Below are positions 1 to 54,375 of a stretch of DNA of 54,375 bases, piece after piece. The notes beneath the pieces were generated by a model. That model saw only the letters and a list, made by a program, of their open reading frames with translations, did not search any database and was not told the origin of the DNA. This DNA is from Leptospiraceae bacterium (GTDB lineage: Bacteria; Spirochaetota; Leptospiria; Leptospirales; Leptospiraceae). The stretch spans positions 1 to 54,375 of the forward strand of contig JAGRNI010000035.1 of the NCBI GenBank assembly GCA_020440835.1, read 5' to 3'. Made by a program: the position numbers and the translations under genes. Numbering within the stretch: position 1 is the stretch's first letter; each line of letters begins with the position of its first letter.

Positions 1-1
1 T

Positions 2-706
2 GAGGCAAGTAAGAGTGAATTATTAAAATTTTTCTTATTTCTTATAAAAGAAAAAAATGCTTCCTATTCTTCAATTCGCATTTATCGTTTTTCTATAGAA
101 TGTTATTTTAGGAATATATTGTGCAGGAACTTCAATCTTTATGAATTGGAAAAAATAAAAAAGGATAATCATATTCCAACGGTTTTGACACACAGAGAAA
201 TTCAAAAAATTTTAAAAAGTATAGAAAATTTGAAACATAGGTTAATCCTTTCTCTTATGTATTCTTCAGGGCTCCGAGTTTCTGAAGTAGTAAAACTCAA
301 AGTTAGAGATGTTGATTTGGAAAATTTAACTTTAACTATACGAGAAGGAAAAGGCAAAAAAGATAGGCTAACCGTCTTTTCAGAAAGTTTAAAAGATCAT
401 TTGCAAGATTTAATGGAAGATAAAACACCAGAAACTTTTTTGTTTATTTCCAACCAGGGTGTTGGAAAATATCCGGTTCATACTAGAACGGTTCAGAAAG
501 TATTCCAAAATGCTATAAAAAAAGCTAAAATTCAGAAAAAAGCAACTCCTCACGATTTAAGGCATAGTTTTGCGACTCACCTCTTAGAAAATGGGATTGA
601 TATACGTTACATTCAGACTTTATTGGGTCATAAAAACATTTCCACAACGACAATATACACAAGAGTAGCGAACCCTGCAATCAAAGGAATTAAGAGCCCG
701 CTGTAG
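2..706 (+). CDS. Tyrosine site-specific recombinase, XerC/XerD family (5' end lies outside the window)
   Basis: The frame is open from position 2 to the window edge. The upstream part (..LIKEKNASYSSIRIYRFSIECY..) resembles the XerD N-terminal region. The catalytic boxes are present (GLRVSEVV; HDLRHSFATHLL...GHKNISTTTIYT, with the R-H-R-Y pattern). The ORF track start at 119 is only the first in-frame TTG. Confidence 0.8.
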   Translation, partial: EASKSELLKFFLFLIKEKNASYSSIRIYRFSIECYFRNILCRNFNLYELEKIKKDNHIPTVLTHREIQKILKSIENLKHRLILSLMYSSGLRVSEVVKLKVRDVDLENLTLTIREGKGKKDRLTVFSESLKDHLQDLMEDKTPETFLFISNQGVGKYPVHTRTVQKVFQNAIKKAKIQKKATPHDLRHSFATHLLENGIDIRYIQTLLGHKNISTTTIYTRVANPAIKGIKSPL

Positions 707-824: not shown

Positions 825-1343
825 ATGATTCAAAAAATACTTAGCTTGGTTATGATTGCCTTGCTTTTGTGTTTTGTAGCTTGCAAAAAAAAAGATAAAG
901 AGCAGACAGAACTTGATACAGACAGTAGTCAAAGTGAAAAACATCACGACCATGGGATGGAAGCACCTCCGGAAAATTCCACTCAAATGAAAGTTGTAAA
1001 TGGAATCAAGGTAGTATTTGACCTAATGGATAAAGAAAATCACAAAAAAATGGTAGAAATCATGGGAGTTGACTTAAAAGAAGACAGCAAAGATGACCAT
1101 TATGCCCTACTCACTTTGCTAAATGATTCAGATAGCTCGTATATAAAAAATGCGGAAGTTGACATAGTTATAAATTATCCGGATGGAAAGAAAGAGTCCA
1201 AAAAAGCAACTATTTTGGATGGTGCCAATATGTACCATTACCAAATCGGCTTTCAAGAATCGGGCAAAGGGATTTATAAAATCCAAACAAAAATTAAAAC
1301 AACTGACAAAGAACTCAATTCTGAATCAGAGTTTAAATTGTAG
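825..1343 (+). CDS. Lipoprotein with His-rich segment (signal peptide plus lipobox FVAC)
   Basis: N-terminal hydrophobic signal followed by Cys (LLLCFVAC). EKHHDHGME patch. Good RBS AGGGAGA at 815-821. Confidence 0.6.
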   Translation: MIQKILSLVMIALLLCFVACKKKDKEQTELDTDSSQSEKHHDHGMEAPPENSTQMKVVNGIKVVFDLMDKENHKKMVEIMGVDLKEDSKDDHYALLTLLNDSDSSYIKNAEVDIVINYPDGKKESKKATILDGANMYHYQIGFQESGKGIYKIQTKIKTTDKELNSESEFKL

Positions 1344-1376
1344 TTCTCATATAAGGGGTAGAATGGTAAGTTCATC

Positions 1377-3605: not shown

Positions 3606-3700
3606 AAGAATACCATAGGCTTTGTAGGGGCATCCCTCTGTGGTTGCCCTTTAAATGAAACCAAAATGTTATATCGAAATTATATTAAAAGGAAACAATT

Positions 3701-4858: not shown

Positions 4859-4956
4859 AAATACGCTATAGGACAATATACACGAATTAGATTGGCTTTT
4901 GGAAAAGTATTTCAGGCTTCCAGTCTGAAAATAACTAGCAAGATGCTTGTTATACC

Positions 4957-6654: not shown

Positions 6655-6716
6655 TTTTTTAATAAATTATATTTGGAACTTCATCAAATATATTTTATCT
6701 TTTAGTACGAATTAGA

Positions 6717-6734
6717 AAAAGTCAAATGACTTTT
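6717..6734. promoter_or_regulatory. Perfect 7-bp inverted repeat AAAAGTC-N4-GACTTTT in the divergent promoter region. A TTGACA(6789)-N15-TATATC(6810) sigma70-like promoter for the kinase operon lies nearby.
   Basis: Read directly in the 200-bp AT-rich intergenic region between the divergently transcribed 7TMR-DISM/AraC gene and the HK-RR-HK operon. Confidence 0.3.
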
Positions 6735-6854
6735 ATTTGTGATAGTATCATTTTTGTAAGAATTTTTGTAGAGTAAGTAAACATTAAATTGACATTTGGT
6801 TATATAAATTATATCAATCAAATATGTTAAGATCCAATTTTTTAGGATTTAGAA

Positions 6855-8558: not shown

Positions 8559-8559
8559 A

Positions 8560-8922
8560 ATGAAAAAAATACTTATTGTAGATGATCAAGCCCCAATGGC
8601 AAAAATTTTAGGTGATATTTTAAAAAAAGGAAATTTTGAAATCCATTTTGCTGTCAACGGGCAGCTAGGAATCAATAAAGCCATAGAATTAAAGCCAGAC
8701 CTCATTATGATGGATATAATGATGCCTGTCAAAACGGGTATAGAAGCAATTAAAGAATTGAAAGATATGAGCGAATTTCAAAATACACCTATGTATCTTG
8801 TTTCAGGTAAAGGTGGAACACGTGATGTAAATCTTGTGAAGGAATTGGGAATAAATGGTTTTATCGCCAAACCCTTTACCCCCAGTATTATATTGGAAGA
8901 GATAATTAAGGTTTTGGCATGA
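8560..8922 (+). CDS. Single-domain response regulator (CheY-like receiver)
   Basis: ILIVDDQ ... MMDIMMP (phospho-acceptor Asp) ... K near the C-terminus. 120 aa. 1-nt gap from the upstream kinase. Confidence 0.8.
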   Translation: MKKILIVDDQAPMAKILGDILKKGNFEIHFAVNGQLGINKAIELKPDLIMMDIMMPVKTGIEAIKELKDMSEFQNTPMYLVSGKGGTRDVNLVKELGINGFIAKPFTPSIILEEIIKVLA

Positions 8923-10853
8923 ATAAATTCTGTAGTCAATTGGTGGGGTTTCGATTAACCTCAAGCAAAGTATTTTTAAGTATTCTTTTCATTTTAGGCA
9001 ATTCCCTATTGGCTATAGAACCGATCATTTTGACAGAAAACAGAGGAGAATACCCTCTTGGATTGCATCTGGAAATTTTGGAAGACAAAGAGGGAACGCT
9101 AACAATAGATGATGTTCAAAAACCGAAGATGGAAAAGCTCTGGTTTAAAAGTCAATGGGAGGTCCCGAATTTCGGGCTTTCAAAAAATGTGTATTGGGCA
9201 AGGTTTAAAATCCAATCACAGTCCAAGAAAGATCATTATCTCGAAATAGCCTACCCGCCTATGGACAAAATTGATTTTTACATATTGTCAGAAGGTGAAA
9301 ATATCATACATAAAAAAGCAGGCGACTTTTTACCATTTAAAGAGCGAGACGTTCAGTATCGAAATTATGTCTTTCGGATTGTGCCGAATGAAAATCCCAA
9401 AACCTACTACCTTAGATTTGAGACGGAAAGCCCTATGCAGTTTCCTTTAACTCTATGGACATCCGTCTCTCTCACTGAAAAAATAAACGGAGAAATGCTC
9501 GGATTCGGACTCTATTATGGAACAATGCTGGTGATGATACTCTACAACCTTTTTCTGTTTTTATCGGTCAGAGATAAAAGCTATCTTTATTATATTGGTT
9601 ACATTGCATCTTTTTTATGTTATCTTGCCTCTGTGAATGGAATTGGTTTCGAATATTTGTGGCAAGACTATCCTTTTTTCAATAGCATGATTCCATCAAC
9701 TATCGCGGTAACTTTATTTTTTTCAACATTGTTTACTCAATCCTTTTTGCAGACAAGTATCCATGCCAAAACCATAAATAAGCTTCTAACGACAGTATCG
9801 GTTAGCTCCTTGATAATTGCCTTAGCATCTACAAAACTAAGTTATTCTCTAAGCATAAGAATCACGAGTACAATTGTGCTAATATTTGTTATTTTAGCCA
9901 TTGTAAGCAGTGCTACCGTATTAAAAGCAGGATACCGCCCTGCTAGATATTTTTTATATGCATGGATTGTACTCTTATTTGGTGGTATTATCTTTACTTT
10001 AATGAATTTTGGAATACTTCCAAGAACTTTTTTAACAAATTATGGTATGCAATTCGGCTCTGCATTCGAAGTAATCCTCCTATCTCTCGGTTTGGCAGAC
10101 AGAATCAATGAATTAAAAAGACAAAATGAGTTAGCAAATATAAAGACACTGGAAGCGGAACAAAGATCGAATAAAGTAAAAGATGAGTTTCTTGCCAATC
10201 TATCCCATGAAATAAAAACCCCTTTAACCATTGTTTACGCATACTCTGAAATGCTAACAACCGGTAAGGATTATTCCGATGAAGTGAAAGAATATTCCAA
10301 AGAGATTTACACACACGCCCAGAAATTAAATGATTACGTGAGTGATGTAATGTTTGTGACTGACTTGGAATCCAATTTGCAATTACAAAGATCTACCGTT
10401 GACTTGGAAAAGTTGGTTGGATATGTAATCAAGCAACACCAATCTTTGGTAGAAGAAAAAGATGTTTTTATCGAATTGAACTTAGGTGAACATACAAACT
10501 TCCATTGCGATGAAATATTGTTGGAAAAAGCCTTATCCGCTATAATTAAAAATGCGATTGTATACAATAACCAAGGTGGGAAAATACGAATTGAAAGTGA
10601 GATAACGTTATCTCACTTTCAACATTTGCAAATCACCATAACCGATACCGGAATTGGCATATCACTGGAATTTCATGAAAAGGTATTTGAAAAATTCTTT
10701 CGAGTGGATTCATCTTTAACGTATACGGTAAGCGGTGTGGGTGTCGGACTCTATATAGCAAAAAAGATAATCGAATTGCATAGCGGAAGTATTGAACTCC
10801 AAAGCGAATTGGAAAAAGGAACTAAGGTTAAAATTGTTTTACCAAGTATTTAG
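8919..10853 (+). CDS. 7TMR-DISM sensor histidine kinase
   Basis: Signal peptide, extracellular 7TMR-DISMED2-like domain and a 7-TM block. H-box LSHEIKTPLT. HATPase_c (GGKIRIES; DTGIGI; GVGVGL). Overlaps the RR stop by 4 nt. Confidence 0.8.
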   Translation: MNKFCSQLVGFRLTSSKVFLSILFILGNSLLAIEPIILTENRGEYPLGLHLEILEDKEGTLTIDDVQKPKMEKLWFKSQWEVPNFGLSKNVYWARFKIQSQSKKDHYLEIAYPPMDKIDFYILSEGENIIHKKAGDFLPFKERDVQYRNYVFRIVPNENPKTYYLRFETESPMQFPLTLWTSVSLTEKINGEMLGFGLYYGTMLVMILYNLFLFLSVRDKSYLYYIGYIASFLCYLASVNGIGFEYLWQDYPFFNSMIPSTIAVTLFFSTLFTQSFLQTSIHAKTINKLLTTVSVSSLIIALASTKLSYSLSIRITSTIVLIFVILAIVSSATVLKAGYRPARYFLYAWIVLLFGGIIFTLMNFGILPRTFLTNYGMQFGSAFEVILLSLGLADRINELKRQNELANIKTLEAEQRSNKVKDEFLANLSHEIKTPLTIVYAYSEMLTTGKDYSDEVKEYSKEIYTHAQKLNDYVSDVMFVTDLESNLQLQRSTVDLEKLVGYVIKQHQSLVEEKDVFIELNLGEHTNFHCDEILLEKALSAIIKNAIVYNNQGGKIRIESEITLSHFQHLQITITDTGIGISLEFHEKVFEKFFRVDSSLTYTVSGVGVGLYIAKKIIELHSGSIELQSELEKGTKVKIVLPSI

Positions 10854-42533: not shown

Positions 42534-43052
42534 TTGACGAGACCAAACCAGAGTGGTTGGGAGGGAGTGCTTATGTATTGCTCTTCCCCACGGTTTATAG
42601 AAAGTTTAGAAGTAAAAGATTTTCTAGTAATTCATATTGATACAGACAAAATCTTTACTCACCAAAATTTTTCTGGGATAAATACAAATTTGCCCTATCA
42701 AGGTTTATACAAAGAAATCCTGCAAAGATTTGAGCAAATAATTGGAGCAGATATTTATTCTAAATATCGAAATAAGATTATATTTGCAATCAGCATGTTT
42801 ACAATAGAATGCTGGTTATTAGTTCTCCATTGCAAAGACAAACAAAATGCAATCAAAAATTGTATAGATCTATTATATAAATGCCTGCAAAAAGGAAATT
42901 CAAAAATTAATCCATATTCTAAAAAACCCAAAGAGTATGAATATCTTAGTAGGGACTTTAACAAACGAAAAAACCTTATAGCAGGTTATAAATTAAATCC
43001 AAGCCTTGAATCATTCGTAAATGAGTTGAATTCTAAAATCAAGAATTTCTAA
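42534..43052 (+). CDS. Hypothetical protein with RloB/DUF4276-like (Toprim-related) motifs, possibly N-terminally truncated
   Basis: ..LVIHIDTD.. (DxD) and ..FAISMFTIECWLLVLH.. resemble the acidic motif and the ..SNPCFElWlLLHF.. box of RloB-like proteins. An in-frame stop 21 nt upstream leaves no room for the usual N-terminal EG.TE segment. Confidence 0.35.
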   Translation: MTRPNQSGWEGVLMYCSSPRFIESLEVKDFLVIHIDTDKIFTHQNFSGINTNLPYQGLYKEILQRFEQIIGADIYSKYRNKIIFAISMFTIECWLLVLHCKDKQNAIKNCIDLLYKCLQKGNSKINPYSKKPKEYEYLSRDFNKRKNLIAGYKLNPSLESFVNELNSKIKNF

Positions 43053-46000
43053 TTTCCTATAAACATATTTGTATAGGGTTTATACCCAATCCAATATTTA
43101 TGATCGTCATAGTTGTTTGTAATTTTATAAAACGATTCGATAAATCTTTCTGAAAAGGGATAATCCACTTTCCTTTGTTCTAAAAATTGTTTTAAAAAGA
43201 AAACGTTATTTGTATCACTCTGTAATCCTGTAGAAACAATTCCAGGTCCAAAATGAATTTGGTCCAAATACATAAATGAAAAAGCCAAATCATCATTGTG
43301 TAGAGATGTTTGAAACAATAACGAACCGGTAAAAATCCAAGGTCCCTGCCTTCTTCCAAATTTGGAAAGATCGGTTAATTTACTTCCTCCAAATTGTATA
43401 ATTCTCCCTTTTTCTAAGCTTAACTCTTCTTGGCTAACAGTAACTTTTTTTCCTGCTCTATTTCCGGACAGATTTCTCAATTCAAAATTTTCCAAACCTT
43501 TTAATTTTTTCCACCATACTTCTGAAAACCTGGATTTATTTTTTATATCTATCCCAAAACCATATTGAAAATCTTCGTTTGGATCGTAAATTGGTCTGTT
43601 AATCATTAATTCAGGATTTAATACATAGTAAAAAATATCCTCCTCTTCCGGTTCCAAGGTAATTTTAAAATGGTAAGACGGAAGGTATAGATAATTGATT
43701 ACACCTTTTTCTAACTTTAGGTGCTTCCTGTATTGCGTCTCTATCAATTCATGTTTGATCAAGGAAGCTCCTGAGTCTTTTATTGTATACAAATAGTCTA
43801 ATATGGCATATTTGATTTCTCGATTATCCTCATAAGCAACATTTCCGGTTATCTTGTCTTGCTTGATATGAATGGAATACGTCTGAATTCCAAGGTCAAT
43901 CATGGCTGTAAATACTTGATTTTTAGGGATTTTATTTTGTATATTTTGAGCAATGGAATTAACTTTTCCTAAATCTTTAAAATAAATATCCCTATCATAA
44001 ATTTTGGGGTCAATGGAACGAAATTTTTCTTTTGCAAAGCCTATGTCCAAAAAAGCAATAAAATCCTTTTGCTTTAAAGATCTCCATTGTAAAAAGGTTA
44101 TAAAATCAAATAGCTCTTTTTCGTTAAATAAATCTATTTTTTGATTGTTTTTGGATACAATCAATTCATCAAGAAGTTTGATAAAATTTGAACTATCGCT
44201 TTTTTCCGCTTTTTCATAAAAAGAAAACCAATCTCGAAAATTGTTATAAATAAAATCTCGTTCCCTTGTAGTAAAGTTGACATCTTCGAATATTTTAGAA
44301 AGTTTGTATTTTAGTAAATGATACGTTTTATTTATATCTTTTTCTTTGTAGTACCCCTTAAAATTCTCTTCAAAATCCTTAAAGTATTTTTTGGATGAAG
44401 GGTAATCGCCTCTTTGGTACAAAGAAGAAGACCATTGTATTTGCATCCATAGTGTCCTATTTTTATTTTTTAGTTTGAATTCCGTATCCAATAGTATGTC
44501 AAATTGGTTATTTAATTCATCTTGAGTTTGGTAAGGTAATGAACTAAGAAGTACAAAAAATAAAAAATTTCTTTCTGTTTCTTGCAATAAATTGAGAGCC
44601 GGTCTTCCATCTTTCAAATACAAAGGACCCAACGTGACGGGTTCAAAATCAATAGACGTTTCCAATGATTCATAAGCATCAAAAATTCTGCTTTGGTATA
44701 CCTTTTTGAAAGAATCGGATTGGTTTTTATAAATACTTTGCGTCTTTTCTTTGTATATGTCCCAAATTCGATTAATAGCGTAGTAATAAACGGAGTTTGT
44801 ATAAATGGGGGCAGGTGCGATACCTTTAATAAAATATATTTCAAAGTCTATGTCCGACAACATTTCATGGGTTATTTCTTTTTCTCTTTGAGACAATGCC
44901 AATTCGTTGGCTTTTTGAGCATGGTATTTAGCTTTATCCCATACGAAACCTCGAGAAAAAAGGTAAGCTAATTTAATATTCTTTAAATATGGCTCTTCAT
45001 CTGTACTTATAGAAATAAATTTTTTATATTCCGGTTCTATAACATTTAAATTTCCTATTCTCAAATTTTTATAATAATATAGAACAAACTTTTTTTGATC
45101 CGTTGCCAGTGGGTGCAAATCATATCTCTCTTGGTATGTTTTGCAATCTACGTCATCTTTTGCTTCATAACACATCAAAAGCATATTGTATAAAACCTTT
45201 TCTTCTTCTTTTGAAGCTAATAAATATTTATCTAAAATAACTTTATAATAAAAAAGATAATCTGTTACAGGAAATAACTTTGTTTTTAGCCTCGCTATAT
45301 TTAGTTCGGACTCAATAAGTAAGTCCGGCTTTGTGTCCGGTAGCACAGAGTTTGCTTGCAAAAGATAACGAATAGATTTTAGATGCTCTTGTTTTCTCTC
45401 CTCTTCAATACCACGTTTTGTAAATTTTCTAAATTCATTCTCATATAATTTTTGATCTTCCGGGTATTCGCTTATACTTTCACCGATAATAATTACCTTT
45501 TCTTCTCGCAAAACTTTATTGATATTTTTTATATTGGAAAGTATTTTATCTTTAATTCTAGTACTGTTTTCTTCTTTTTCTATTAATAGGATAGACTTCA
45601 CTCCTGCAAATTGCAATATATCATACAAAAATCCTATTTTGATAAAATTATCCAAAGTCCTTTTGTAATTCGTTATGATGAGTAACGGAATATTCCACTG
45701 GTTTTCCACTACTTCTCTAATGTGTATATTACCAACTTTTTTTTCTGCTATCATGTGCTTGCGGTTAGAAAAGTCAGTTTCGCCGACAAGAATATCTGTA
45801 TCAGTGAGATAATTTTTTAGTTCTTCCGAGGACACGTTTCTTAGATTGATTTCCTTGATCTCTTTTTTTTCTTCTTTACTTTCAAGAGTAAATATGCTTT
45901 TTGTTCTTTCCCAAAAAGATTTATCCCTTTTATCAATATCTGGAAAAACATCTGTTATACGTTTTAAACGGGAATACTCAAAGTCAACTTCTCTTTCCAA

Positions 46001-49000
46001 TTGACTTGAACGAAAAATATAACGTATTTCAAAATAATCATTTAGAGTTTTATCTTTGTATTTTATGCCATTGAAGTCCATTTTATACATTTTATAAGAT
46101 GGAACAAATACTATTTTTTTTATATTAGTGTAGCTATCAAGTAAAGATGCCAAATGCTTTTCTATTTCTTTTGGATCATCAAAATCGTCAATACGGAATT
46201 CTTGAACACTTCTACTATTTTTATAAAACGCCATTTGTGTGTAGTATTTTCCAGATGCAAAAAATTGAATCAAAATTTCATTCGGTTCTAATAATATCGG
46301 TATTGGTTTGGGAGAGGTTTCGGTCCAACTAGAAACATCTATTCCTACAGGAATGTACTTAGAATAATTCTTTATGGATTCTTGTATTTTCTTTAGGTTC
46401 TTTTCTTTTTCATTTATGATTTTTGCCGTGTTCCGGCTTTTTTCATTCGCCTGTTCTATTTTACCAATGTATTCCTTATCTTCTAACACTAAAAGTTGAA
46501 TATTATTTAGGGTTTCAAATATTTTTTTATCCTGGAACTTCAATTCATTTACCAGAAGTTGTCTAAAAAAAATAAAGCTAAATAGCTTTTCTCTATTTGC
46601 AACAACTTCGTCGTATTTTTTTAGTTTTAAAAGAATCATGCTCTTTAATGAATACAGACTATTTAAAAATATTTCATCTATATCGTAGATAATACCCGGA
46701 TTCTTTTTTAAATTCTCTTCTGCTTTATTTGTATACTCCAAAGCGGTTGAATAGCTACTATAATTCTTTTCACCTTTTTTATAGAAATACTCAGCTTGAA
46801 TTTGGTAAATACTTAACAACTCTCTTTCAAATTGGTATTCACTAGAGAAATAAAAAGCTTCCGCTATTTGCTTTTCAAACTTTTCCAATTCACCCAATCG
46901 ATAATAGATTAAAGCTGTAATTATTTTTAATCTTGCTCTTTCTTTGGCTGAAAATTTATCACCTTCCAAACCAATATCATCGTCCTCAATTCCCAAAGGA
47001 TTTTTTATCAAAGGCAATGCTCTGCCATAATAATCAAAGGCTACTTCGTATTCTTTTTTTTGTTTGTAAAGTTCCCCTAAATAAAAATAATTGTAACCAA
47101 GAAACGGGTCAAAATTATAATAAGTTTCATCAAATTTTTTTTCACAATAATCCTCTAAATCTTCCTCCTTAATTTTTAAAGTTTTATCGATAGATTCCAA
47201 GCATCTTTTAAATGTATCATCCCTAAATTTTTTTGAAAATTTTATATTCTCAACCAACTCTTCTAGTACCGTTTTTACGTTGTCCGGATTTTCCTCCAAA
47301 TGAGCAAATAAAGCAATATTAGATCTCAGGTAAGACCTGTAGGCTTGTTCATAATTCTTTTTTTCTGTCTGCTCGGTATAATCATACGTATATAGATTAT
47401 CTGCTTCATAATAATTTCCTCTAATAAATTCATTGTACCCTAACTCAGCGTGATCACCATCTAATATTTGTTTTCCAATTTGAGTTTTGTCTAATTTGTT
47501 TTCTTCAATAAATTTGCTACGTTTATGAATTGCCTCTGCTGTTTGGTTAAATTCTTTTTTGTCGGTTAGAATATTAATCCGTATTCCTTGGGTAGTTAGA
47601 TTAGAGAACTCGGGTGTCATCCCAAAAGGAAATCTTCCCGGTCCAATTGTTCTAACGTTATCAGGTAAAACAGAATCCCATATGGAATATTTAAAATAGT
47701 CTAAAAAACCCTTTTTACTTTTTGCATCATATTCTTCGTCTGCTAAAGAAAGCATCTCATCAGCTTTTTCATATTCTCCGATTTCTTGGTAGCAAAAAGC
47801 CAAATTATTGTAAAGGCTCATATCATTGATATAGTCCGTATCTCCGTTCATAGACACAGAAGTGGAAAAAGATACAATGGCATCATCATATCTCTCTAAC
47901 TCCATTTCAGTCAAACCAATTAAAGCGTGTAATAAAGCAATTTTTTTCTTAACATCAACCATATATTCCCTTAATTCTGGAATATCGTTTTTCACTCCAA
48001 GCTTTGCAAGAATTGGAAAATATTCCGATTCATAATATATATCTACTGCTTTATGAAAATATTTTAAGGCTTTTGTATATTTGGATGCATAGATATTTGA
48101 TCTTGCAAAATTAAAGTAGTACAAAGCTTTTTGTTTGTAGTCTTCAAATTGGACTCTATCAATAACATATCTAGATAGTCCTTCTACCTTATTGTAATGG
48201 AACAAAGCTTTTTGAAAATTAGACAATAAGAAATAATTATTTGCTATATTAAGGTGTATGTCGGACAATACTTTTTTATTCTCGTATTTTCCCAAAAACT
48301 CCAAAATCTGGTTGTACAATTCAATATTTTCTTCCAAATACTGCATTGGAAAATATTTAGTGTAAAGGGATTCATAAACTTTTCCGTCTAGACTGTTTTC
48401 TAAGGGTATAAATGTTTTTTTTCGAACATCTATATATTGGTACAACCATCCAAGTAACAAATATGCATCCGCATAAACCGGATCCGCGTAAATAATCCAT
48501 CCCAAATCATACTCAGCTTGTTTTAAATTCTGTAGTATCTCTGATTTTCGAGACTCTGTTAATGCATCCTCCATAAGATAGTAGGTTTCTTCCTTTACTG
48601 CTTTGGAAATAAGGTAATAGGTATAGCCATAAATAGTAGCATAATCCAAACTTTTCCTTGAACTATCTAATATTTCTTTATAATAATTATCTAAAACTTT
48701 TAGTTTATCATCGTCATACAAATCCGAAAAAAATTGTAAATCTCTGAAATCTCCAAAATACTTAAAAATTTTTGCTCTGAATATACCATCCAAACTTTCT
48801 GTAACATCTCCCCATATATCCAAGCGACGCTTATGGGGTATGTTAAACTTTTTAAATAATTCTCTATTTTCACTCTCCTGAAGATTATTAGCATACTCCA
48901 GAGCCGAATCAACCATCTTTTTTTGATAAAAAACGGAATAGTCTTTGTAGATTTTACCTATTGGTAACTTTTTTTCTTTAGATAAAGACAATAATCTAAC

Positions 49001-51115
49001 TATATATTGATAACTAATAGCTGCATCTTTAAACTTATTATTAACCTCAAATTCTCTGGCTCTTTGTTCAAAAAATAACATGGGTCTTTTTATATCTTCT
49101 TCTTTGATAACAACTCCGGAATCATAATCATAATTTTCAATAAACTCTAATAATTCGAGACTGGATTTGACAGTATCCCCTAAATCTCTTAAGTTTTCTG
49201 CTTTTAAAAGTTTACTTTTTAGATAAACATAAGAACCTTTTTTAAGGGCAGGGAGGTAAGAATCGATTAAAGTATTGCTTTCTTTAAACTTATTTTCCTT
49301 TTCAAGTAAGTCTGCCTGCATGTACTTCAAAAATCCGGACAACTCATTACTCTTTCCTTCTAAATTTTGTCCCTTTAAATAAAAATCCGTTAAACGTCTT
49401 ATCTCAGGTTTTGTATTATTTTTATACAAATTATCATAAATGTCTTCCATCACATATTTAATATCTTTTCGTGATGAGTTATCATCATTTACAATTTCTA
49501 TCAAATAGTCGGGTATCTTTGATTTATTAGTAGAAAATTCAATAATTCCGATTTTCCTTTTTACTTCGGATGTTCGATAATAATTCGGATATTCTTGTAA
49601 AATTTGTTTGTATAGTTCTTTAGCATCTTCTTTATTCTCAAGCTCATCTTGCACATCACCAGCTTCCTGAAGTACACCGGGAGCAATTTGAGAGTGCATT
49701 CCCTTAGTATTTTTTACGCTCCCATAGTATTTTAAAAGACCGTCTACAGGATTTAATCCTTTTTGTCTTTCTTCATAAGAATAAGCTAGCGCATAAGACA
49801 ATCCGTATTGCAAGTCTCCTTTTGTACGGGACATTTTTTGGACCATTAGCTTATACAAATCTTCTTCTCCGTCGTTATCATATTCATAAACCATGAGTCT
49901 GTCAGCTCTCGAACGAATAACAGGAAAAAGAGGATCATGTCCATAAAATAATTCAATAGAATTCAGAGCCAGTATAAAATAGTCCATCGACCTTGGTCGG
50001 TAGAGTTTGGAAACCTCGTATTGTTCAATAATATCTTTTTGTTTGGGAATTTCTCCTTGTAGTGGTATAAAATATATATTTATGGCGTTATCCAAAGAAG
50101 CACTAAAAAAGAGAGAGCCATTGTTCATGGCAGAATACTCCACGTCGAATATGGACAAATTTCCAGCTGTTAATTTGGTGGTTTTACCCGTTTTTAAATC
50201 CAACTGTATGATAAAATTGTTATCTCTTTCATCCAAACGTCCGTTTTTGTTAGTGTCATTTTGAACGGAAGAATAATAAAGAAAGCTATCATCCGGATTT
50301 ACAGAAGGACCAAAGTCCATAAAATTATCGTTGGTGAGTCTTTTTTCTTGTTTTGTAGATATGTCCAGAGAATATATTTCACCTAGTGGATGGTCTTTAA
50401 AAGAAAGGTAATATACAGTTTTGTTGTTGGAAGAAAAACACGCTTTTACGCCACCTTTTGTTGTGAGTTGTTTTATTTTGTTTTTGTTTTGGGTGTCAAT
50501 AATAGCAAGGTTTGGTAATCCCGGTGTGAAGCGTTCCGTAGAAAATACGATATACCTGCCATCTCCGGACCAATCCGGATCCGTATCAACAATTCTTTCT
50601 ATCTTAGACGGGTCACCGTAGTGAGGATTTGTGAGAACTTGAAAGTCTTCATTTATATACATATCTCCTTTTAGGTAGGCATCCACCCATTTCTTAGGAT
50701 TCATATCCATCAGAATCAAGTCTCCTTCCGAGTCAAACTGTTCCGAAACATAAACGAGCTTATCTCCTTTGGGGCTTATTGCAGGTTTTAGCGCACTGGC
50801 AGGATGATTTGTCACTGGTACAACAATAGAGCTTTTTAAATCTCTAAAAAATATATCAAAATTTCCATTGTCGTTGGAAGCAAAAAATAAATATCTACCA
50901 TCTTCTGTTGTAGAATTATAAAGATTGTCGCCTCGTTTTACGGTAAGCGGGTATGGGTTTTCATTTTGAGACGTATAATGAGCTTTGCTTATGGAATCGT
51001 AATCAAATTCATTTGGTTTTATTTTGGAACTGCGATAAAAAATCAAAGAACATCCAAAAAAAAATAGCAAAGGAAAAATAATTTTATAAAATTTCATTAA
51101 TCCTTTCGCCCCCAT
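43049..51115 (-). CDS. Giant (2688 aa) lipoprotein: N-terminal TolB-like PD40 beta-propeller followed by about 2000 aa of TPR-like helical repeats
   Basis: Lipobox FFFGC. PD40 signatures (DGRYLFFASNDNGNFDIFF; SPKGDKLVYVS; SGDGRYIVFSTER). Many 34-residue repeats with the W/LG/Y..A...Y pattern. Start overlaps the upstream lipoprotein gene by 19 nt. Confidence 0.7.
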   Translation of the reverse strand: MGAKGLMKFYKIIFPLLFFFGCSLIFYRSSKIKPNEFDYDSISKAHYTSQNENPYPLTVKRGDNLYNSTTEDGRYLFFASNDNGNFDIFFRDLKSSIVVPVTNHPASALKPAISPKGDKLVYVSEQFDSEGDLILMDMNPKKWVDAYLKGDMYINEDFQVLTNPHYGDPSKIERIVDTDPDWSGDGRYIVFSTERFTPGLPNLAIIDTQNKNKIKQLTTKGGVKACFSSNNKTVYYLSFKDHPLGEIYSLDISTKQEKRLTNDNFMDFGPSVNPDDSFLYYSSVQNDTNKNGRLDERDNNFIIQLDLKTGKTTKLTAGNLSIFDVEYSAMNNGSLFFSASLDNAINIYFIPLQGEIPKQKDIIEQYEVSKLYRPRSMDYFILALNSIELFYGHDPLFPVIRSRADRLMVYEYDNDGEEDLYKLMVQKMSRTKGDLQYGLSYALAYSYEERQKGLNPVDGLLKYYGSVKNTKGMHSQIAPGVLQEAGDVQDELENKEDAKELYKQILQEYPNYYRTSEVKRKIGIIEFSTNKSKIPDYLIEIVNDDNSSRKDIKYVMEDIYDNLYKNNTKPEIRRLTDFYLKGQNLEGKSNELSGFLKYMQADLLEKENKFKESNTLIDSYLPALKKGSYVYLKSKLLKAENLRDLGDTVKSSLELLEFIENYDYDSGVVIKEEDIKRPMLFFEQRAREFEVNNKFKDAAISYQYIVRLLSLSKEKKLPIGKIYKDYSVFYQKKMVDSALEYANNLQESENRELFKKFNIPHKRRLDIWGDVTESLDGIFRAKIFKYFGDFRDLQFFSDLYDDDKLKVLDNYYKEILDSSRKSLDYATIYGYTYYLISKAVKEETYYLMEDALTESRKSEILQNLKQAEYDLGWIIYADPVYADAYLLLGWLYQYIDVRKKTFIPLENSLDGKVYESLYTKYFPMQYLEENIELYNQILEFLGKYENKKVLSDIHLNIANNYFLLSNFQKALFHYNKVEGLSRYVIDRVQFEDYKQKALYYFNFARSNIYASKYTKALKYFHKAVDIYYESEYFPILAKLGVKNDIPELREYMVDVKKKIALLHALIGLTEMELERYDDAIVSFSTSVSMNGDTDYINDMSLYNNLAFCYQEIGEYEKADEMLSLADEEYDAKSKKGFLDYFKYSIWDSVLPDNVRTIGPGRFPFGMTPEFSNLTTQGIRINILTDKKEFNQTAEAIHKRSKFIEENKLDKTQIGKQILDGDHAELGYNEFIRGNYYEADNLYTYDYTEQTEKKNYEQAYRSYLRSNIALFAHLEENPDNVKTVLEELVENIKFSKKFRDDTFKRCLESIDKTLKIKEEDLEDYCEKKFDETYYNFDPFLGYNYFYLGELYKQKKEYEVAFDYYGRALPLIKNPLGIEDDDIGLEGDKFSAKERARLKIITALIYYRLGELEKFEKQIAEAFYFSSEYQFERELLSIYQIQAEYFYKKGEKNYSSYSTALEYTNKAEENLKKNPGIIYDIDEIFLNSLYSLKSMILLKLKKYDEVVANREKLFSFIFFRQLLVNELKFQDKKIFETLNNIQLLVLEDKEYIGKIEQANEKSRNTAKIINEKEKNLKKIQESIKNYSKYIPVGIDVSSWTETSPKPIPILLEPNEILIQFFASGKYYTQMAFYKNSRSVQEFRIDDFDDPKEIEKHLASLLDSYTNIKKIVFVPSYKMYKMDFNGIKYKDKTLNDYFEIRYIFRSSQLEREVDFEYSRLKRITDVFPDIDKRDKSFWERTKSIFTLESKEEKKEIKEINLRNVSSEELKNYLTDTDILVGETDFSNRKHMIAEKKVGNIHIREVVENQWNIPLLIITNYKRTLDNFIKIGFLYDILQFAGVKSILLIEKEENSTRIKDKILSNIKNINKVLREEKVIIIGESISEYPEDQKLYENEFRKFTKRGIEEERKQEHLKSIRYLLQANSVLPDTKPDLLIESELNIARLKTKLFPVTDYLFYYKVILDKYLLASKEEEKVLYNMLLMCYEAKDDVDCKTYQERYDLHPLATDQKKFVLYYYKNLRIGNLNVIEPEYKKFISISTDEEPYLKNIKLAYLFSRGFVWDKAKYHAQKANELALSQREKEITHEMLSDIDFEIYFIKGIAPAPIYTNSVYYYAINRIWDIYKEKTQSIYKNQSDSFKKVYQSRIFDAYESLETSIDFEPVTLGPLYLKDGRPALNLLQETERNFLFFVLLSSLPYQTQDELNNQFDILLDTEFKLKNKNRTLWMQIQWSSSLYQRGDYPSSKKYFKDFEENFKGYYKEKDINKTYHLLKYKLSKIFEDVNFTTRERDFIYNNFRDWFSFYEKAEKSDSSNFIKLLDELIVSKNNQKIDLFNEKELFDFITFLQWRSLKQKDFIAFLDIGFAKEKFRSIDPKIYDRDIYFKDLGKVNSIAQNIQNKIPKNQVFTAMIDLGIQTYSIHIKQDKITGNVAYEDNREIKYAILDYLYTIKDSGASLIKHELIETQYRKHLKLEKGVINYLYLPSYHFKITLEPEEEDIFYYVLNPELMINRPIYDPNEDFQYGFGIDIKNKSRFSEVWWKKLKGLENFELRNLSGNRAGKKVTVSQEELSLEKGRIIQFGGSKLTDLSKFGRRQGPWIFTGSLLFQTSLHNDDLAFSFMYLDQIHFGPGIVSTGLQSDTNNVFFLKQFLEQRKVDYPFSERFIESFYKITNNYDDHKYWIGYKPYTNMFIGN

Positions 51116-51729: not shown

Positions 51730-52002
51730 AGAGTGATTTTCGGATAAGAAATAAAAGAAATTCTTTTAAAATTAAGTGAATCCAATCATGTAAATCCCGA
51801 AAATCATTCTTATCATAGTATATATTGCACTAAAAGAGAAATTTTTTGTATAGCATTTTATAGTGTAAGAATTTTTTTTGTGGGTTTTCGGTATTTTCTC
51901 AAATTTTATAGGTAAGAAGCGAAATTTAAGTATTTGCAATATTTTATCCATGGTACAATAAGATTATGGATGCAGTAAACTCTGGAAAATTGCAATATCA
52001 TC

Positions 52003-52210
52003 GTTTTTGGTGTATCACGTTCAAGCATACCCGAAGCTCCCGATAGGGAGTTTCACCGAGCAAGTGAGCTTTTACCACTGCAAGTGCTGTGGCTGAGTAA
52101 CTTCCAATCTTACGAAGGCACTGCACTTGCCTGGGAGAACCAAGGCTATCTCGGTGCAAGGAAGCAAACAATTTCCTATTTTGGTTTGCTTCCGCAGTGG
52201 GTATGCTTTG
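52003..52210. repeat. Candidate structured RNA / repeat element, copy A (about 200 nt)
   Basis: It shares about 85% identity with 54228-54375. The hairpin GCTCCC-GATA-GGGAGT becomes GCTGGC-GATA-GCCAGT in copy B, a double compensatory change. GCAAGTGC (52080-87) pairs with GCACTTGC (52122-29). The closing helix is GCATACCC (52025-32) / GGGTATGC (52199-206). There is a 10-bp perfect stem GGAAGCAAAC/GTTTGCTTCC at 52160-52193. Confidence 0.5.
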
Positions 52211-52256
52211 TTGTGCGATGTGCTTTTGGTTTTGACTATTTAGTTTCATGTAATTT

Positions 52257-52643
52257 TTAAGAAAAAGGATTATAAACTTTTAGCTCTTTTATTTTCTTAA
52301 AGTCATCTTCATTTCTTGTAACTAAAGTAAAGTTATACATTAATGCTGTAGCTGCTATTATTGTATCTGGAGTCTTAAGATTATTGTTTTGCTTTAATTC
52401 TATTGATTTAGACTCTATTTGATTATCTATATAAAATATCTTAGCTGGTTGTATAAATTGAGTAATTCTGTTTATATCTTCTTCTGGAATTTTTTTCCAT
52501 CCTAACAACTCAATTTTTGTAATTGTCGAAATATTAAATGATTCCCTTAGAATACTTTCCACTTTTTCAACATGATTTTCAGGGATCATATCATTCAAGT
52601 AATAAATCAGAATGTTAGTATCTATTAAATATTGATCGTCCAT
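52257..52643 (-). CDS. vapC: PIN-domain toxin (VapC-like)
   Basis: IDTNILI (Asp1), ..ITKIELL.. (Glu), TPDTIIAATA (Asp) and TRNEDDF motifs. 128 aa. Confidence 0.8.
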   Translation of the reverse strand: MDDQYLIDTNILIYYLNDMIPENHVEKVESILRESFNISTITKIELLGWKKIPEEDINRITQFIQPAKIFYIDNQIESKSIELKQNNNLKTPDTIIAATALMYNFTLVTRNEDDFKKIKELKVYNPFS

Positions 52644-52855
52644 TCTTCACGCATATTTTTTAATTCAATTTCAATATTAAGCTTTAAGTGGCGAAGCATT
52701 CCTCGGAAAGGTTTAGGATCATAAATTTCATTTTTTTGGTATTGTTTCTCTTGGATTGGTACAAATTTTTCTACTTTTTTCCAAATTTCATAAGGAATAA
52801 CAGCATATTCAATTTGTCCTTGAAGATTGTATATGTAATTTAATTTCATAATCAT
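52625..52855 (-). CDS. Putative cognate antitoxin (about 76 aa), overlapping the vapC start by 19 nt
   Basis: Position and size are typical of a type II antitoxin. I chose the internal Met (MIMKLNY..) as the start because the long ORF's N-terminal extension is hydrophobic, low-complexity and unlike a protein. Fold not recognised. Confidence 0.45.
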   Translation of the reverse strand: MIMKLNYIYNLQGQIEYAVIPYEIWKKVEKFVPIQEKQYQKNEIYDPKPFRGMLRHLKLNIEIELKNMREEWTINI

Positions 52856-53247
52856 TATAATAATAGCATTTATAAAACAAGTCAATGATTTTATTAAGGT
52901 TCTCCAAAAAATAGCCATCAAAAAAACTTTTGATAATTGTAGCTCAAAATAAATGTCTACCTTAAAATTACTTGCCAAAACAAAAAGTTTTTCCATTATA
53001 ATTTATGTCACATTTACCATGGCTAAATTATTGCAAGTAATCAACTTTCCATTAGTACCCGTTTATGGCTGGACATTGTAAAAAGAAAAACCCAAAAAAG
53101 ATTAATATCTGAAAGTTCTTGTCCAACTTTATGTGGGTAGCCCATTTATTTGTAGCCTAACCCTCCTAACCCTATGTTATGATATTTCCTATAATATAGG
53201 AAGAAAAATATACTTGCTTTATTTTTACAATAAGAAAGTTTTTGTGT

Positions 53248-53565
53248 ATGCATAGAGATTTGATCATATTTTTTATTGCAGGAATGTTTTGTTTTAACTC
53301 ATGTGCTACTAGATACATGAGTATGGTAGAACCATCCAAATTAACAGGCAATACTAAACCACATACAATATGGACTACGGGGTATCTTGTTGATATACCA
53401 ATCAATTATAATATAAGATCAGCTGAATTATGTCCCGAAGGACGAATTGGTGGTATCCAAATGACTTATCCTTCAACTCCTCTTATGTTAGTAAATATTT
53501 CAGTATGTATTCTTACTTTGTGGCTCATGTGTCCACATACTATTGGTGTTGAATGCATAGATTAA
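53248..53565 (+). CDS. Small putative lipoprotein (about 105 aa)
   Basis: Signal peptide plus CFNSC lipobox. Starts ATGCATAGA as does the next gene. Confidence 0.4.
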   Translation: MHRDLIIFFIAGMFCFNSCATRYMSMVEPSKLTGNTKPHTIWTTGYLVDIPINYNIRSAELCPEGRIGGIQMTYPSTPLMLVNISVCILTLWLMCPHTIGVECID

Positions 53566-53828
53566 AAACAATTCTTATCTTATTTTTAATTGTTTTTCAA
53601 TTTACTTGTTTGAAATTTTATTTACGTGATGATATAGATGAGTCACAAGTACTTATATTAACTAAAGATGACTTAAAGTGTATCAAAATACAGACCGGTA
53701 AAAACGAGGCTTTTTATTTGGAAGATTGGTCATCTATATGTAAACAATTTGGTAGAAAAGAAATAGTGTATATTAAATATCGTTATAATGGGTTCATCTA
53801 TAAATTAGACGAAATATGGTGCAAATAA
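53553..53828 (+). CDS. Small putative lipoprotein or secreted protein (91 aa)
   Basis: N-terminal hydrophobic segment ILILFLIVFQFTC. Overlaps the neighbouring genes (13 nt upstream, 1 nt downstream). Confidence 0.4.
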   Translation: MHRLKTILILFLIVFQFTCLKFYLRDDIDESQVLILTKDDLKCIKIQTGKNEAFYLEDWSSICKQFGRKEIVYIKYRYNGFIYKLDEIWCK

Positions 53829-54088
53829 TGAAATTAAAATCTTTTACTCTTTGTCTATTTTTTATTGGATGCTTTGCGACTCATAAAGGATTGCCACCTT
53901 TAGAGAGTGAAAAATATTTTATAAAATCCAAAGGATGCGATGAAAAAGAAATTCTTGAATCAAAACAACAAAAATCAAAAGAAATAGAGGACAAAACAAA
54001 ACATTATGATTATTACCCAGAATGTTGTAAACACTATCAAGTTTGTCCTCCCTGTAAACCTTCTTCTTCTTCTTGTTGTTGTAAGTAA
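53828..54088 (+). CDS. Small lipoprotein with Cys-rich C-terminal tail (ECCKHYQVCPPCKPSSSSCCCK)
   Basis: MKLKSFTLCLFFIGC lipobox. 9 Cys in the last 22 residues. ATG overlaps the previous TAA (TAATG). Confidence 0.45.
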   Translation: MKLKSFTLCLFFIGCFATHKGLPPLESEKYFIKSKGCDEKEILESKQQKSKEIEDKTKHYDYYPECCKHYQVCPPCKPSSSSCCCK

Positions 54089-54227
54089 CAAAACACTTTC
54101 TTTATATAAATAGCGTATTGTTTCTTTTCGGTTAACAGATATAGAAGTAATCTAAATACTTGGAATGTATGCATATTTTGATATTCCTTTTTTCAAAAGC
54201 TTATTTTCTTTGTTAAGTAGCTAAAGC

Positions 54228-54375
54228 TTTTTAGCATATCGCACAACGTTAGAGCATACCCGAAGCTGGCGATAGCCAGTTTCACCGAGCAAATGAGCCT
54301 ATTCCAATGCAAGTGCTGTGACTGAGTAACTTCCAATCATACGAAGGCACAACACTTGCTTGGAGTTCCAAGCCT
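54228..54375. repeat. Candidate structured RNA / repeat element, copy B (truncated by the window end)
   Basis: Aligns base-for-base with 52003-52147, including the covarying hairpin and the GCAAGTGC/CACTTGC helix. Confidence 0.5.

What the first reader, a model, noticed from the sequence alone, without database searches (positions are those of the whole stretch)
52003..54375. Two copies of a roughly 200-nt element with compensatory base changes bracket a 2.2 kb toxin-antitoxin plus small-lipoprotein module
Copies at 52003-52210 and 54228-54375 are about 85% identical and in direct orientation. A 6-bp stem with a GATA loop changes from CTCCC/GGGAG to CTGGC/GCCAG, two simultaneous compensatory substitutions. 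A second helix (GCAAGTGC...GCACTTGC) and a terminal stem (GCCTGG..CCAAGGC against GCTTGG..CCAAGC) are also maintained despite sequence change. An 8-bp closing helix (GCATACCC/GGGTATGC) encloses the whole of copy A. This is the signature of selection on RNA secondary structure, not on protein coding. The ORF called across copy A (51998-52249) would not be conserved in copy B. I could not match it to B12, TPP, SAM, fluoride, 6S, tmRNA or group II D5 consensus. Between the copies lie vapBC-like genes and three tiny lipoprotein genes in a very AT-rich stretch. The bracketed module could therefore be a mobile or cassette-like unit, or the element may be an sRNA, a leader or a structured terminator family.
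Basis: seen in the sequence. Interest (0 to 1): 0.75.

Follow-up and report, generated by a model that had tools for sequence, protein, structure and literature searches.

The report
Integron-like cassette recombination sites in Leptospiraceae
The two repeats are most likely not RNA genes but folded-DNA recombination sites that separate mobile gene cassettes, in an integron-like system whose recombinase lacks the feature thought to define integron integrases.

Summary
Two direct copies (about 52004-52224, and 54233 to the contig end) are about 84% identical and show true compensatory changes. With 17 copies from related contigs, 95.9% of cells pair, 20 of 57 pairs change on both sides, and 0 of 500 shuffles match this.

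The RNA reading is not supported. The outer 12-15 nt of each copy pair with the neighbouring copy's flank, not with their own (7 of 7 neighbours). That only makes sense for an excised circular cassette.

The left end of the contig carries a truncated tyrosine recombinase (2-706). L122 extends the contig leftward at 100% identity. There, a cassette end identical to one found next to an element elsewhere is joined, exactly after AAC, to a site 116 nt upstream of the recombinase start.

Two homologous recombinases elsewhere sit beside related hairpin sites. For one of them, three samples share 160 nt upstream of the gene and diverge exactly after AAC.

The layout matches an integron: AAC/GTT triplets, two paired boxes around a bubble, chimeric sites, TA cassettes, a divergent recombinase. 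But the recombinase is XerA-like and lacks about 40 residues of the IntI-specific region. The sites are 150-215 nt, branched, and have no regular extrahelical bases. Verdict: a new variant of a known kind.

The parts
2..706 (+). Tyrosine recombinase, C-terminal 234 aa. The N-terminus is cut off by the start of the contig. The full-length protein is 364 aa, read from L122 145-1239.
   Evidence: tblastn with recalled IntI sequences gave E=8e-35. NCBIfam's best match is NF040815 'site-specific tyrosine recombinase/integron integrase'. TIGR02249 (integron integrase) scores below its cut-off and matches in two pieces. L122 534-11153 equals window 1-10620 at 100%. Against the PDB, XerA (4A8E, 5HXY) scores above IntI4 (2A3V) and XerD. 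About 40 residues of the IntI-specific region are missing.
52004..52018 (+). Outer 5' flank of copy A (TTTTTGGTGTATCAC). It is a degenerate R-box arm, CAC instead of AAC, with a 5-nt deletion relative to the other copies. I read it as the distal end of the array, abutting core genome.
   Evidence: Alignments A2 and A4. Its pairing with its own 3' flank is poor, 2 Watson-Crick pairs of 12. Genes to its left look chromosomal: a 2688-aa protein and a weak, below-cut-off DUF1318 match.
52019..52224 (+). Copy A core, long form. Bubble GTTCAA 52019-52024. L-box arm GCATACCC 52025-52032. Hairpin P2 52033-52054. P3 CACCGAG 52054-60 pairing with CTCGGTG 52150-56. Central hairpin about 52075-52134. Hairpin P5 52160-52193. 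L-box arm GGGTATGC 52199-52206. Bubble TTT 52207-09. R-box arm GTTGTGCGATGTGCT 52210-52224.
   Evidence: Folds, consensus fold, CM match at 238.6 bits, pair counts.
52019..54247 (.). One cassette unit: core A, the genes, and the 5' flank of copy B up to AAC. Read on the - strand this is the usual order, genes followed by their own site.
   Evidence: The crossover is placed right after AAC from L122 against L098 and from L129, L130 and L131. The 3' flank of A (52210-52224) is complementary to the 5' flank of B (54233-54247): 11 Watson-Crick pairs plus 1 G.T of 12 (I12, 74).
52257..52643 (-). vapC-like PIN-domain toxin gene. Its stop codon lies 33 nt from the site.
   Evidence: Pfam PF01850, E=1.3e-14.
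52625..52996 (-). Putative antitoxin ORF overlapping the start of vapC. It is 123 aa as called, or 75 aa from the ATG at 52852. A promoter-like site lies at 52885-52857 (-).
   Evidence: ORF list, promoter scan. It has no Pfam hit, so 'vapB' is inferred from position only.
53242..54088 (+). Three small overlapping ORFs (107, 91 and 90 aa) with hydrophobic N-termini and a Cys. They are oriented opposite to vapBC.
   Evidence: ORF list. No Pfam hit. All three ORFs are called in other metagenome contigs; the 90-aa product is matched exactly there and the other two are matched only by length and position. The lipoprotein nature was not tested.
54233..54375 (+). Copy B. R-box arm AGCATATCGCACAAC 54233-54247, then the core, cut at model position 146 by the end of the contig. 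The rest is read from L003 783-1009.
   Evidence: 148.8 bits, truncated at the 3' end.

Best explanation
The element is the attC-like recombination site of an integron-like gene-cassette array in a Leptospiraceae bacterium.

Each cassette carries one site. Here the cassette is vapBC plus three small ORFs, window 52019-54247.

When a cassette is single-stranded, or excised as a circle, the window's + strand (the canonical 'bottom' strand) folds into a hairpin. Its base has two paired boxes. The outer R box is about 15 bp and ends in the invariant AAC/GTT. The inner L box is 9-11 bp (GCATACCC/GGGTATGC). An unpaired bubble separates them, 5-6 nt on one arm and 2-3 nt on the other. Above the boxes sits a large branched terminal structure: P2, P3, an optional 57-nt central hairpin, and P5.

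A tyrosine recombinase related to XerA and IntI is encoded divergently at the head of such arrays; window 2-706 is a truncated copy. It binds the two boxes and cuts at the AAC next to the bubble. It joins the cassette either to a double-stranded attI-like site about 115-160 nt upstream of its own gene or to another cassette site.

What is shown: the structure and its covariation; the chimeric flanks; the crossover position; the association of this site family with this recombinase family; and the variable first cassette.

What is inferred: that the substrate is single-stranded DNA; that this recombinase is the catalyst; that one strand is exchanged and the junction is resolved by replication; and that conserved G.T wobbles, rather than extrahelical bases, mark the reactive strand.
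For: (1) Structure. 95.9% of cells pair, 20 of 57 pairs change on both sides, 0 of 500 shuffles reach this, and slid controls pair at 29-39%. L-box arms covary within a copy.

(2) Chimeric sites. In 7 of 7 adjacent pairs, the 3' flank of copy n pairs with the 5' flank of copy n+1 at 10-12 of 12 positions (mean 11.4), although the sequences differ between cassettes. A copy's own flanks average 7.9, and other combinations average 7.6. Rebuilding the circular-cassette site lowers the DNA folding energy from -47.2 to -61.8 kcal/mol.

(3) Crossover. L122 is the 100% identical leftward extension of this contig. Its first 28 nt...CGCTTAAC, equal the 5' flank of element L098_2. After AAC it continues into the region 116 nt upstream of the recombinase ATG instead of into an element core.

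(4) Three samples with the identical homologous recombinase P0039 share 160 nt upstream of the ATG. They diverge exactly after GCCTAAC, ACATAAC and GCTTAAC. In every place shown, these recombinase genes lie 0.1-2.7 kb from a contig end.

(5) The covariance model built from this element also finds sites, on the same strand only, upstream of the recombinase homologues P0021 and P0039 (E 1e-7 to 4e-5). Those arrays show the same AAC|GTTCA motif, covarying L boxes, chimeric flanks of 23-24 nt, and cassette genes divergent from the recombinase.

(6) Strand. There are 37 G.T wobbles against 8 A.C on the + strand. The + strand folds 6-11 kcal/mol better. Most cassette genes are on the other strand.

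(7) Cassette content and setting are typical of chromosomal integrons: TA modules, small ORFs, ankyrin and pentapeptide proteins, IS elements inside arrays.
Against: No recombination was observed, and everything rests on comparison of assemblies.

In the window itself, the recombinase and the two sites are 51 kb apart, at opposite ends of the contig. The array that belongs to this recombinase copy lies off the left end. The array holding copies A and B must be served by this copy acting in trans or by another copy off the right end.

The recombinase lacks the IntI-specific insertion. The literature treats that insertion as the adaptation for single-stranded attC recombination (PMC4792948, PMC7790495).

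The sites differ from canonical attC in several ways. They are 150-215 nt against 57-141. The R box is about 15 bp against 7. The bubble is asymmetric. There are no regular extrahelical bases (PMC5027507).

The interior is more conserved in sequence than a merely 'variable' terminal structure needs to be: 10 of 16 pairs of the central helix never vary. An extra role for it is not excluded.

The L122/L098 identity covers only 28 nt, the whole of what L122 offers. 17 of those 28 nt recur upstream of a third, different core (L109).

A canonical IntI elsewhere in this genome could not be ruled out, because the MAGs could not be read in full.
Confidence: 0.8

Rival explanations
1. A family of structured non-coding RNAs (sRNA, leader or terminator) transcribed from the + strand.
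For: Covariation is strong and the invariant G.U pairs lie on the + strand. The RNA fold has z = -4.9. The element is GC-rich in AT-rich spacers. The loops of the central hairpin are conserved.
Against: There is no Rfam match. The outer helix is complementary only between neighbouring copies, so it cannot form in an array transcript. There is no promoter or terminator signal. The central domain is missing in several copies. The neighbouring genes are mostly on the other strand. The exact AAC junctions to a recombinase-proximal site have no RNA explanation.
Confidence: 0.06
2. Ordinary attC sites of a canonical integron. A true IntI with the I2 helix, encoded elsewhere in the genome, moves the cassettes. 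The XerA-like recombinase is a bystander, for example a chromosome dimer resolvase.
For: The sites have AAC/GTT triplets, R and L boxes and a chimeric arrangement, and the arrays resemble clusters of attC sites that lack an integrase (PMC4889954). The full MAGs could not be searched for intI.
Against: The variable cassette junction lies 116-160 nt upstream of the XerA-like gene in two lineages. A third lineage has a matching half-site about 25 nt upstream of its gene, next to an array of related sites. Contigs consistently break just upstream of this gene. No IntI-like gene was found in about 156 kb of window and array-bearing loci held. The sites lack extrahelical bases, which matches a recombinase without the helix that reads them. 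The literature held here reports integrons among spirochaetes only in Treponema (PMC3607928).
Confidence: 0.08
3. A palindromic dispersed repeat of the MITE, REP or ERIC type, spread by a transposase. Hairpin potential would be kept only by its inverted-repeat origin.
For: It is multi-copy, intergenic and hairpin-forming, and it occurs near IS elements.
Against: The copies lie in direct tandem orientation about 0.6-2.4 kb apart. There are no target-site duplications. The flanks are complementary between neighbours. The interior is branched, with several independent covarying hairpins. The junctions fall at one fixed point, AAC.
Confidence: 0.03
4. att sites of integrative islands recombined as ordinary double-stranded DNA by the adjacent integrase. 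The hairpin would be incidental.
For: The integrase gene sits at the edge of variable DNA. The left half of each element (arm, spacer, arm) resembles the recombinase-proximal site and could act as a double-stranded site.
Against: Double-strand exchange at the left half-site gives no reason for the 3' arms to stay complementary, nor for R'(n+1) and R''(n) to covary across cassettes. The strand asymmetry of wobbles also points to a folded single strand. The cassettes are 0.6-2.4 kb and carry no integrase of their own.
Confidence: 0.05

Closest known systems
Sedentary chromosomal integrons and their attC sites (for example the Vibrio cholerae superintegron with VCR repeats, recombined by IntIA)
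   Same: Arrays of promoterless or TA-bearing cassettes, each ending in a folded imperfect-hairpin site. Conserved AAC/GTT triplets. R and L boxes around an unpaired spacer. Chimeric sites in the array. High similarity between sites within one host. A branched terminal structure. A divergent tyrosine recombinase with an adjacent insertion site. A first cassette that varies between samples. IS elements inside arrays.
   Different: The recombinase lacks about 40 residues of the IntI-specific region that holds the I2 helix, and it has an extra N-terminal region of about 85-90 aa. It scores below the integron-integrase cut-offs. The sites are 150-215 nt against 57-141. The R box is about 15 bp against 7. 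The bubble is asymmetric. There are no regular extrahelical bases, but there are conserved G.T wobbles. The host clade is Leptospiraceae and other Spirochaetota, not known in the literature held here to carry integrons.
XerCD-mediated integration of the folded single-stranded CTX-phi attP(+) site
   Same: A Xer-type recombinase without an I2-like domain would act on a hairpin that imitates a double-stranded two-arm site with an unpaired central region. There are no extrahelical bases. One strand would be exchanged and replication would resolve the junction (inferred).
   Different: CTX-phi is a phage that borrows the host's dimer-resolution enzymes and dif. Here there is a dedicated recombinase beside an array of many gene cassettes.
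Archaeal and bacterial XerA acting at dif
   Same: It is the closest in sequence: NF040815 at 222-226 bits, and PDB 4A8E and 5HXY as best matches.
   Different: XerA is about 270-290 aa and resolves chromosome dimers at a single double-stranded dif site. This protein is about 356-365 aa and sits beside variable cassette arrays.
Acinetobacter pdif modules (genes flanked by XerC/D sites on plasmids)
   Same: Small gene modules, often TA systems, bounded by Xer-type sites.
   Different: pdif sites are 28-bp double-stranded sites in alternating orientation. They have no hairpin and no dedicated adjacent recombinase.

Membership tests
Integron (IntI plus attI plus attC cassettes) | An integron integrase with the IntI-specific insertion (I2 helix), scoring above the integron-integrase model cut-offs | tested here: not met
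   TIGR02249 scores 186-196 bits against a cut-off of 265, and NF011946 scores 126-147 against 435, both in two pieces with profile positions of about 180-250 unmatched. Against VchIntIA (2A3V), 60 chain residues (181-240) face 20 query residues. IntegronFinder's intI_Cterm HMM was not available.
Integron (IntI plus attI plus attC cassettes) | attC: conserved AAC and GTT triplets within inverse core and core sites (RYYYAAC / GTTRRRY) | tested here: met
   AACGTT is invariant at the 5' edge in 9 of 10 copies (copy A has CAC), and GTT is invariant at the 3' edge. Examples are GCTTAAC/GTTAAGC. Other copies fit the consensus with one deviation.
Integron (IntI plus attI plus attC cassettes) | attC: R and L boxes separated by an unpaired spacer of 5-6 nt per arm, with extrahelical bases near L'', and a total length of 57-141 bp | tested here: not met
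   The boxes and the bubble are present. But the R box is about 15 bp, the bubble is 5-6 nt against 2-3 nt, only 2 of 17 copies have an extra base in the L box, and the length is 150-215 nt. Reference values are from PMC5027507.
Integron (IntI plus attI plus attC cassettes) | Chimeric sites: the outer box arm after each site belongs to the next cassette | tested here: met
   7 of 7 adjacent pairs, mean 11.4 of 12 positions paired, against 7.9 for a copy's own flanks.
Integron (IntI plus attI plus attC cassettes) | An insertion site (attI) next to the integrase gene, with cassettes that differ between strains and join at the conserved triplet | tested here: met
   L122 against L098, same strain as the window. 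L129, L130 and L131 diverge exactly after AAC, 160 nt upstream of the ATG.
Integron (IntI plus attI plus attC cassettes) | Recombination of the folded bottom strand by the integrase | not testable with these tools
   Indirect evidence only: wobble asymmetry of 37 to 8, a lower folding energy for the + strand, and cassette gene orientation.
Rfam structured RNA families | A match to a curated covariance model | tested here: not met
   There were no matches at gathering score in the window, and none on the element at E up to 10.
MITE / REP-type dispersed repeat | Terminal inverted repeats belonging to the same copy, target-site duplications, and dispersed single insertions | tested here: not met
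   A copy's own flanks are not complementary while neighbours' flanks are. Copies lie in tandem direct arrays.

The most novel reading that the evidence does not exclude
A lineage of Xer/XerA-like tyrosine recombinases without the I2 helix runs a complete integron-type platform in Leptospiraceae and other Spirochaetota. The platform has an attI-like site, a divergent gene, and arrays of cassettes with folded single-strand sites. The reactive strand would be marked by conserved G.T wobbles and an asymmetric bubble instead of extrahelical bases. This would be either a surviving pre-I2 stage of integron evolution or an independent invention of the same solution.
Probability: 0.5. Interest if true: 0.85.

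Novelty: new variant of a known kind. Interest (0 to 1): 0.78.

Why it matters
Integron integrases are thought to have arisen from Xer-like enzymes by gaining the I2 helix. That helix reads the extrahelical bases of folded attC sites and blocks the second strand exchange (PMC4792948, PMC7790495). No natural intermediate is described in the literature held here.

A cassette platform with hairpin sites but an I2-less, XerA-like recombinase makes that question testable with real proteins and sites. It would also show that cassette arrays exist outside what IntI-based and attC-model-based searches can find, so the gene-cassette pool is probably under-counted. It would add a mobile-gene system to Leptospiraceae.

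On the practical side, these 150-215-nt repeats break assemblies and are annotated as hypothetical proteins.

Tried and rejected
Rfam found nothing on the element, at gathering thresholds or at E up to 10.

A distant blastn of the element against plasmids found no match.

A 15-mer scan of viral contigs gave 91 hits, all chance. A second viral scan gave 0 hits.

A diversity-generating retroelement (template and variable repeats) was rejected by inspection of the alignment: the differences between copies are not confined to adenines.

CRISPR, retron, bridge RNA and omega-RNA readings were considered. They were dropped because no matching neighbouring gene is present, and the repeat size and spacing are wrong.

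I first oriented the array with the + strand as the 'top' strand and the crossover at the 3' GTT. This was rejected after the L122 and L129-131 junctions placed the crossover at the 5' AAC, and after gene orientation was taken into account.

A search with the spurious ORF across the element returned only 2 protein clusters. Their NCBI contigs could not be fetched.

No IntI-like gene other than window 2-706 was found in the roughly 156 kb of sequence held.

L117 (P0007) and L132/L133 (P0011) gave no model hit upstream of the recombinase. Their upstream DNA is short or the sites have diverged, so the association is shown for three lineages, not for all.
Full report
OBSERVATION

The window holds two direct copies of a GC-rich element in AT-rich DNA. 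They share 118 nt at 86% identity, or 131 nt at 84.7%. The window is an entire 54375-nt contig of a Leptospiraceae MAG, and copy B is cut by the contig end. Its remainder was read from metagenome contigs that carry the same cassette (L003 and L002). The full copies are 83% identical over 208 nt.

No Rfam family matches the element. Both strands fold far better than shuffles, and the + strand is better by 11 kcal/mol.

MORE COPIES

A scan of one genome per species found the element in the sister MAG Leptospiraceae HK-STAS-SPIR-3 (L101, L104, L106). It also found it in a 9-kb contig binned as Chitinophagales (L098), which carries three copies about 1 kb apart in tandem. A metagenome scan added five short contigs.

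There is a long form of about 210 nt and a short form that lacks a 57-nt central hairpin.

A covariance model built on ten copies aligned 17 copies. On that alignment 95.9% of cells pair and 20 of 57 pairs change on both sides. 0 of 500 shuffles reach this, and slid controls pair at 29-39%. The alignment is fitted to the model, and copy B is counted twice. Even so, the P2 hairpin alone shows at least eight compensated versions around an invariant G.T.

WHY THIS IS NOT AN RNA

The inner closing helix (GCATACCC/GGGTATGC) covaries within a copy. The outer 12-15 nt do not pair with their own partner. Each 3' flank (GTT...) is the reverse complement of the 5' flank (...AAC) of the next copy.

This holds in 7 of 7 adjacent pairs. 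They pair at 10-12 of 12 positions (mean 11.4). The sequences differ from cassette to cassette, and there is always a G.T at the eighth position. A copy's own flanks average 7.9, and other combinations average 7.6.

The two complementary arms therefore travel with the DNA between two cores, and they meet only if that DNA is excised as a circle. Rebuilding that site from copy B's 5' arm and copy A lowers the DNA folding energy from -47.2 to -61.8 kcal/mol. This is the chimeric-site signature of integron arrays (PMC4889954). An array transcript could not form the outer helix.

There is no promoter or terminator signal.

THE RECOMBINASE

tblastn found a tyrosine recombinase at window 2-706 (+), truncated by the start of the contig. 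L122 is 100% identical to window 1-10620 and extends it 533 nt to the left. It gives the full 364-aa protein.

The closest family model is NF040815, 'site-specific tyrosine recombinase/integron integrase'. The integron-integrase models match below their cut-offs and in two pieces.

Against solved structures, XerA (4A8E, 5HXY) scores best. Next comes VchIntIA (2A3V), where 60 residues (181-240, the IntI-specific region) face only 20 residues in this protein. The C-terminal G-x-x-SPL is shared with VchIntIA. The protein also has about 85-90 extra N-terminal residues.

LINK BETWEEN RECOMBINASE AND SITES

(a) L122 begins with TTTAAAACCCAGCACGATACCGCTTAAC. This is identical over all 28 nt to the 5' flank of element L098_2. 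After AAC, L098 continues into an element core, while L122 continues as TAAAAGTACCCG..., 116 nt upstream of the recombinase ATG. The same cassette end is thus joined to a cassette site in one place and to a recombinase-proximal site in another.

(b) The homologue P0021 (61% identical) is preceded by three shorter sites of about 95-170 nt. They have the same AAC|GTTCA motif, covarying L boxes (GCTTATCAG/CTGATAAGC, GTATATCAG/CTGATATAC, GTATACCCG/CGGGTATAC) and chimeric flanks of 23-24 nt. Cassette genes are transcribed away from the recombinase. A half-site, AAAC GTTTA GTATACCCG, lies about 25 nt upstream of the ATG.

(c) The homologue P0039 occurs with an identical sequence in many samples. Three contigs share exactly 160 nt upstream of the ATG and then diverge right after GCCTAAC, ACATAAC and GCTTAAC.

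(d) The model built from the window's element detects the P0021 and P0039 sites on the recombinase strand only (E 1e-7 to 4e-5).

(e) In every place shown, these genes lie 0.1-2.7 kb from a contig end, as expected next to a repeat array.

ORIENTATION AND STRAND

The junctions place the crossover at the AAC on the 5' edge of the element as written on the window's + strand. Cassette genes are mostly on the opposite strand. Examples are vapBC here, the genes in L106, and the ankyrin genes in L111 and L118-120.

In integron terms, the window's - strand is therefore the top strand (gene, then site) and the + strand is the bottom strand, the one that folds and reacts in integrons (PMC5027507). The + strand carries 37 G.T wobbles against 8 A.C and folds better.

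Copy A, with its degenerate outer arm, is then the last site of an array that runs off the right end of the contig towards its recombinase. The recombinase at the left end heads an array that lies off the left end. Whether these are two arrays or one array on a small replicon is unresolved.

MECHANISM

What is shown: a covarying hairpin with two boxes, neighbour-complementary arms, a fixed junction at AAC, variable first cassettes, and the association with this recombinase family in three lineages.

What is inferred: the folded + strand presents two binding arms around a bubble, much like the CTX-phi hairpin that XerCD uses (PMC4792948). The recombinase cuts next to AAC, exchanges one strand with the attI-like site or with another cassette site, and replication resolves the product. 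The absence of regular extrahelical bases fits a recombinase without the helix that reads them. The conserved wobbles and the asymmetric bubble are my candidates for strand choice.

The unusually conserved interior may simply reflect the homogeneity typical of chromosomal arrays, but a further role is not excluded.

COMPARISON AND NOVELTY

It works like a sedentary chromosomal integron. It fails two defining tests, the IntI-specific insertion and canonical attC geometry and length, so I do not file it as an ordinary integron.

The literature held here has no integron in Leptospiraceae. One paper states that Treponema is the only spirochaete clade with integrons (PMC3607928). The I2 helix is described as the innovation that made integron integrases (PMC4792948, PMC7790495).

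I rate it a new variant of a known kind. The main caveats are that all evidence is comparative and that the complete genomes could not be examined.

Noticed in passing
window 2-706 (+): A tyrosine recombinase gene is cut by the start of the contig, while the other end of the contig is cut inside a recombination site. Both ends of this 54-kb contig therefore stop at parts of the same kind of system. Whether that means two arrays or one small replicon is open.
   Followed up: partly
L098 (JACJXS010000006.1), whole locus: This 9-kb contig is binned as Chitinophagales. It carries three Leptospiraceae-type sites and shares IS sequences at 99-100% identity with contig 4 of the Leptospiraceae MAG (L104). 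It is probably mis-binned.
   Followed up: partly
L098 1191-3300; L104 2494-3062: Several cassettes have no ORF of 50 aa or more. They contain their own internal direct repeats of about 100-125 nt, spaced 160-190 nt apart (L098 2705-2806 / 2897-3001; L104 2629-2754 / 2791-2916; also L104 6578-6661 / 6694-6775). Their nature is unknown.
   Followed up: no
L098 3972-5264 and 6634-7914; L104 3213-5700: Transposase genes and fragments lie inside or beside the arrays: a DDE type, one ISKra4-like by my reading, and one IS256/mutator-like. One site in L104 (6934-7152) is inverted relative to the other two, which suggests IS-mediated rearrangement.
   Followed up: no
window 51998-52249 (-): The conserved core translates into an 83-aa ORF that is deposited as a hypothetical protein in two MAGs (MCB1191269.1, MCP5495665.1). 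Such spurious proteins can be used to find further copies.
   Followed up: yes
window 43049-51115 (-): A 2688-aa ORF lies immediately left of the array end. The only domain hints come from the record of its 2682-aa counterpart in L112: faint PD40, Tricorn_N and TPR hits. It overlaps the start of a 210-aa ORF with a weak DUF1318 match (below the curated cut-off).
   Followed up: no
L117 about 430-500: A tandem run of GGGGAAGTTT-like decamers lies upstream of the recombinase homologue P0007. No site of the family was detected in the 1180 nt available there.
   Followed up: no
L122 120-140; L119 2474-2494: Besides the cassette junction, a second half-site-like sequence (ATAC GTTTA GTTATCC in L122, AAAC GTTTA GTATACCCG in L119) lies 8-25 nt upstream of the recombinase start codon. 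It could be a further binding site, or it could allow autoregulation.
   Followed up: no
L101 1302-3501: Downstream of the single site in L101, on the + strand orientation of the element, lie a 627-aa DNA methyltransferase-like ORF and a 108-aa ORF. This may be a defence-type cassette. No second site was found within the locus.
   Followed up: no
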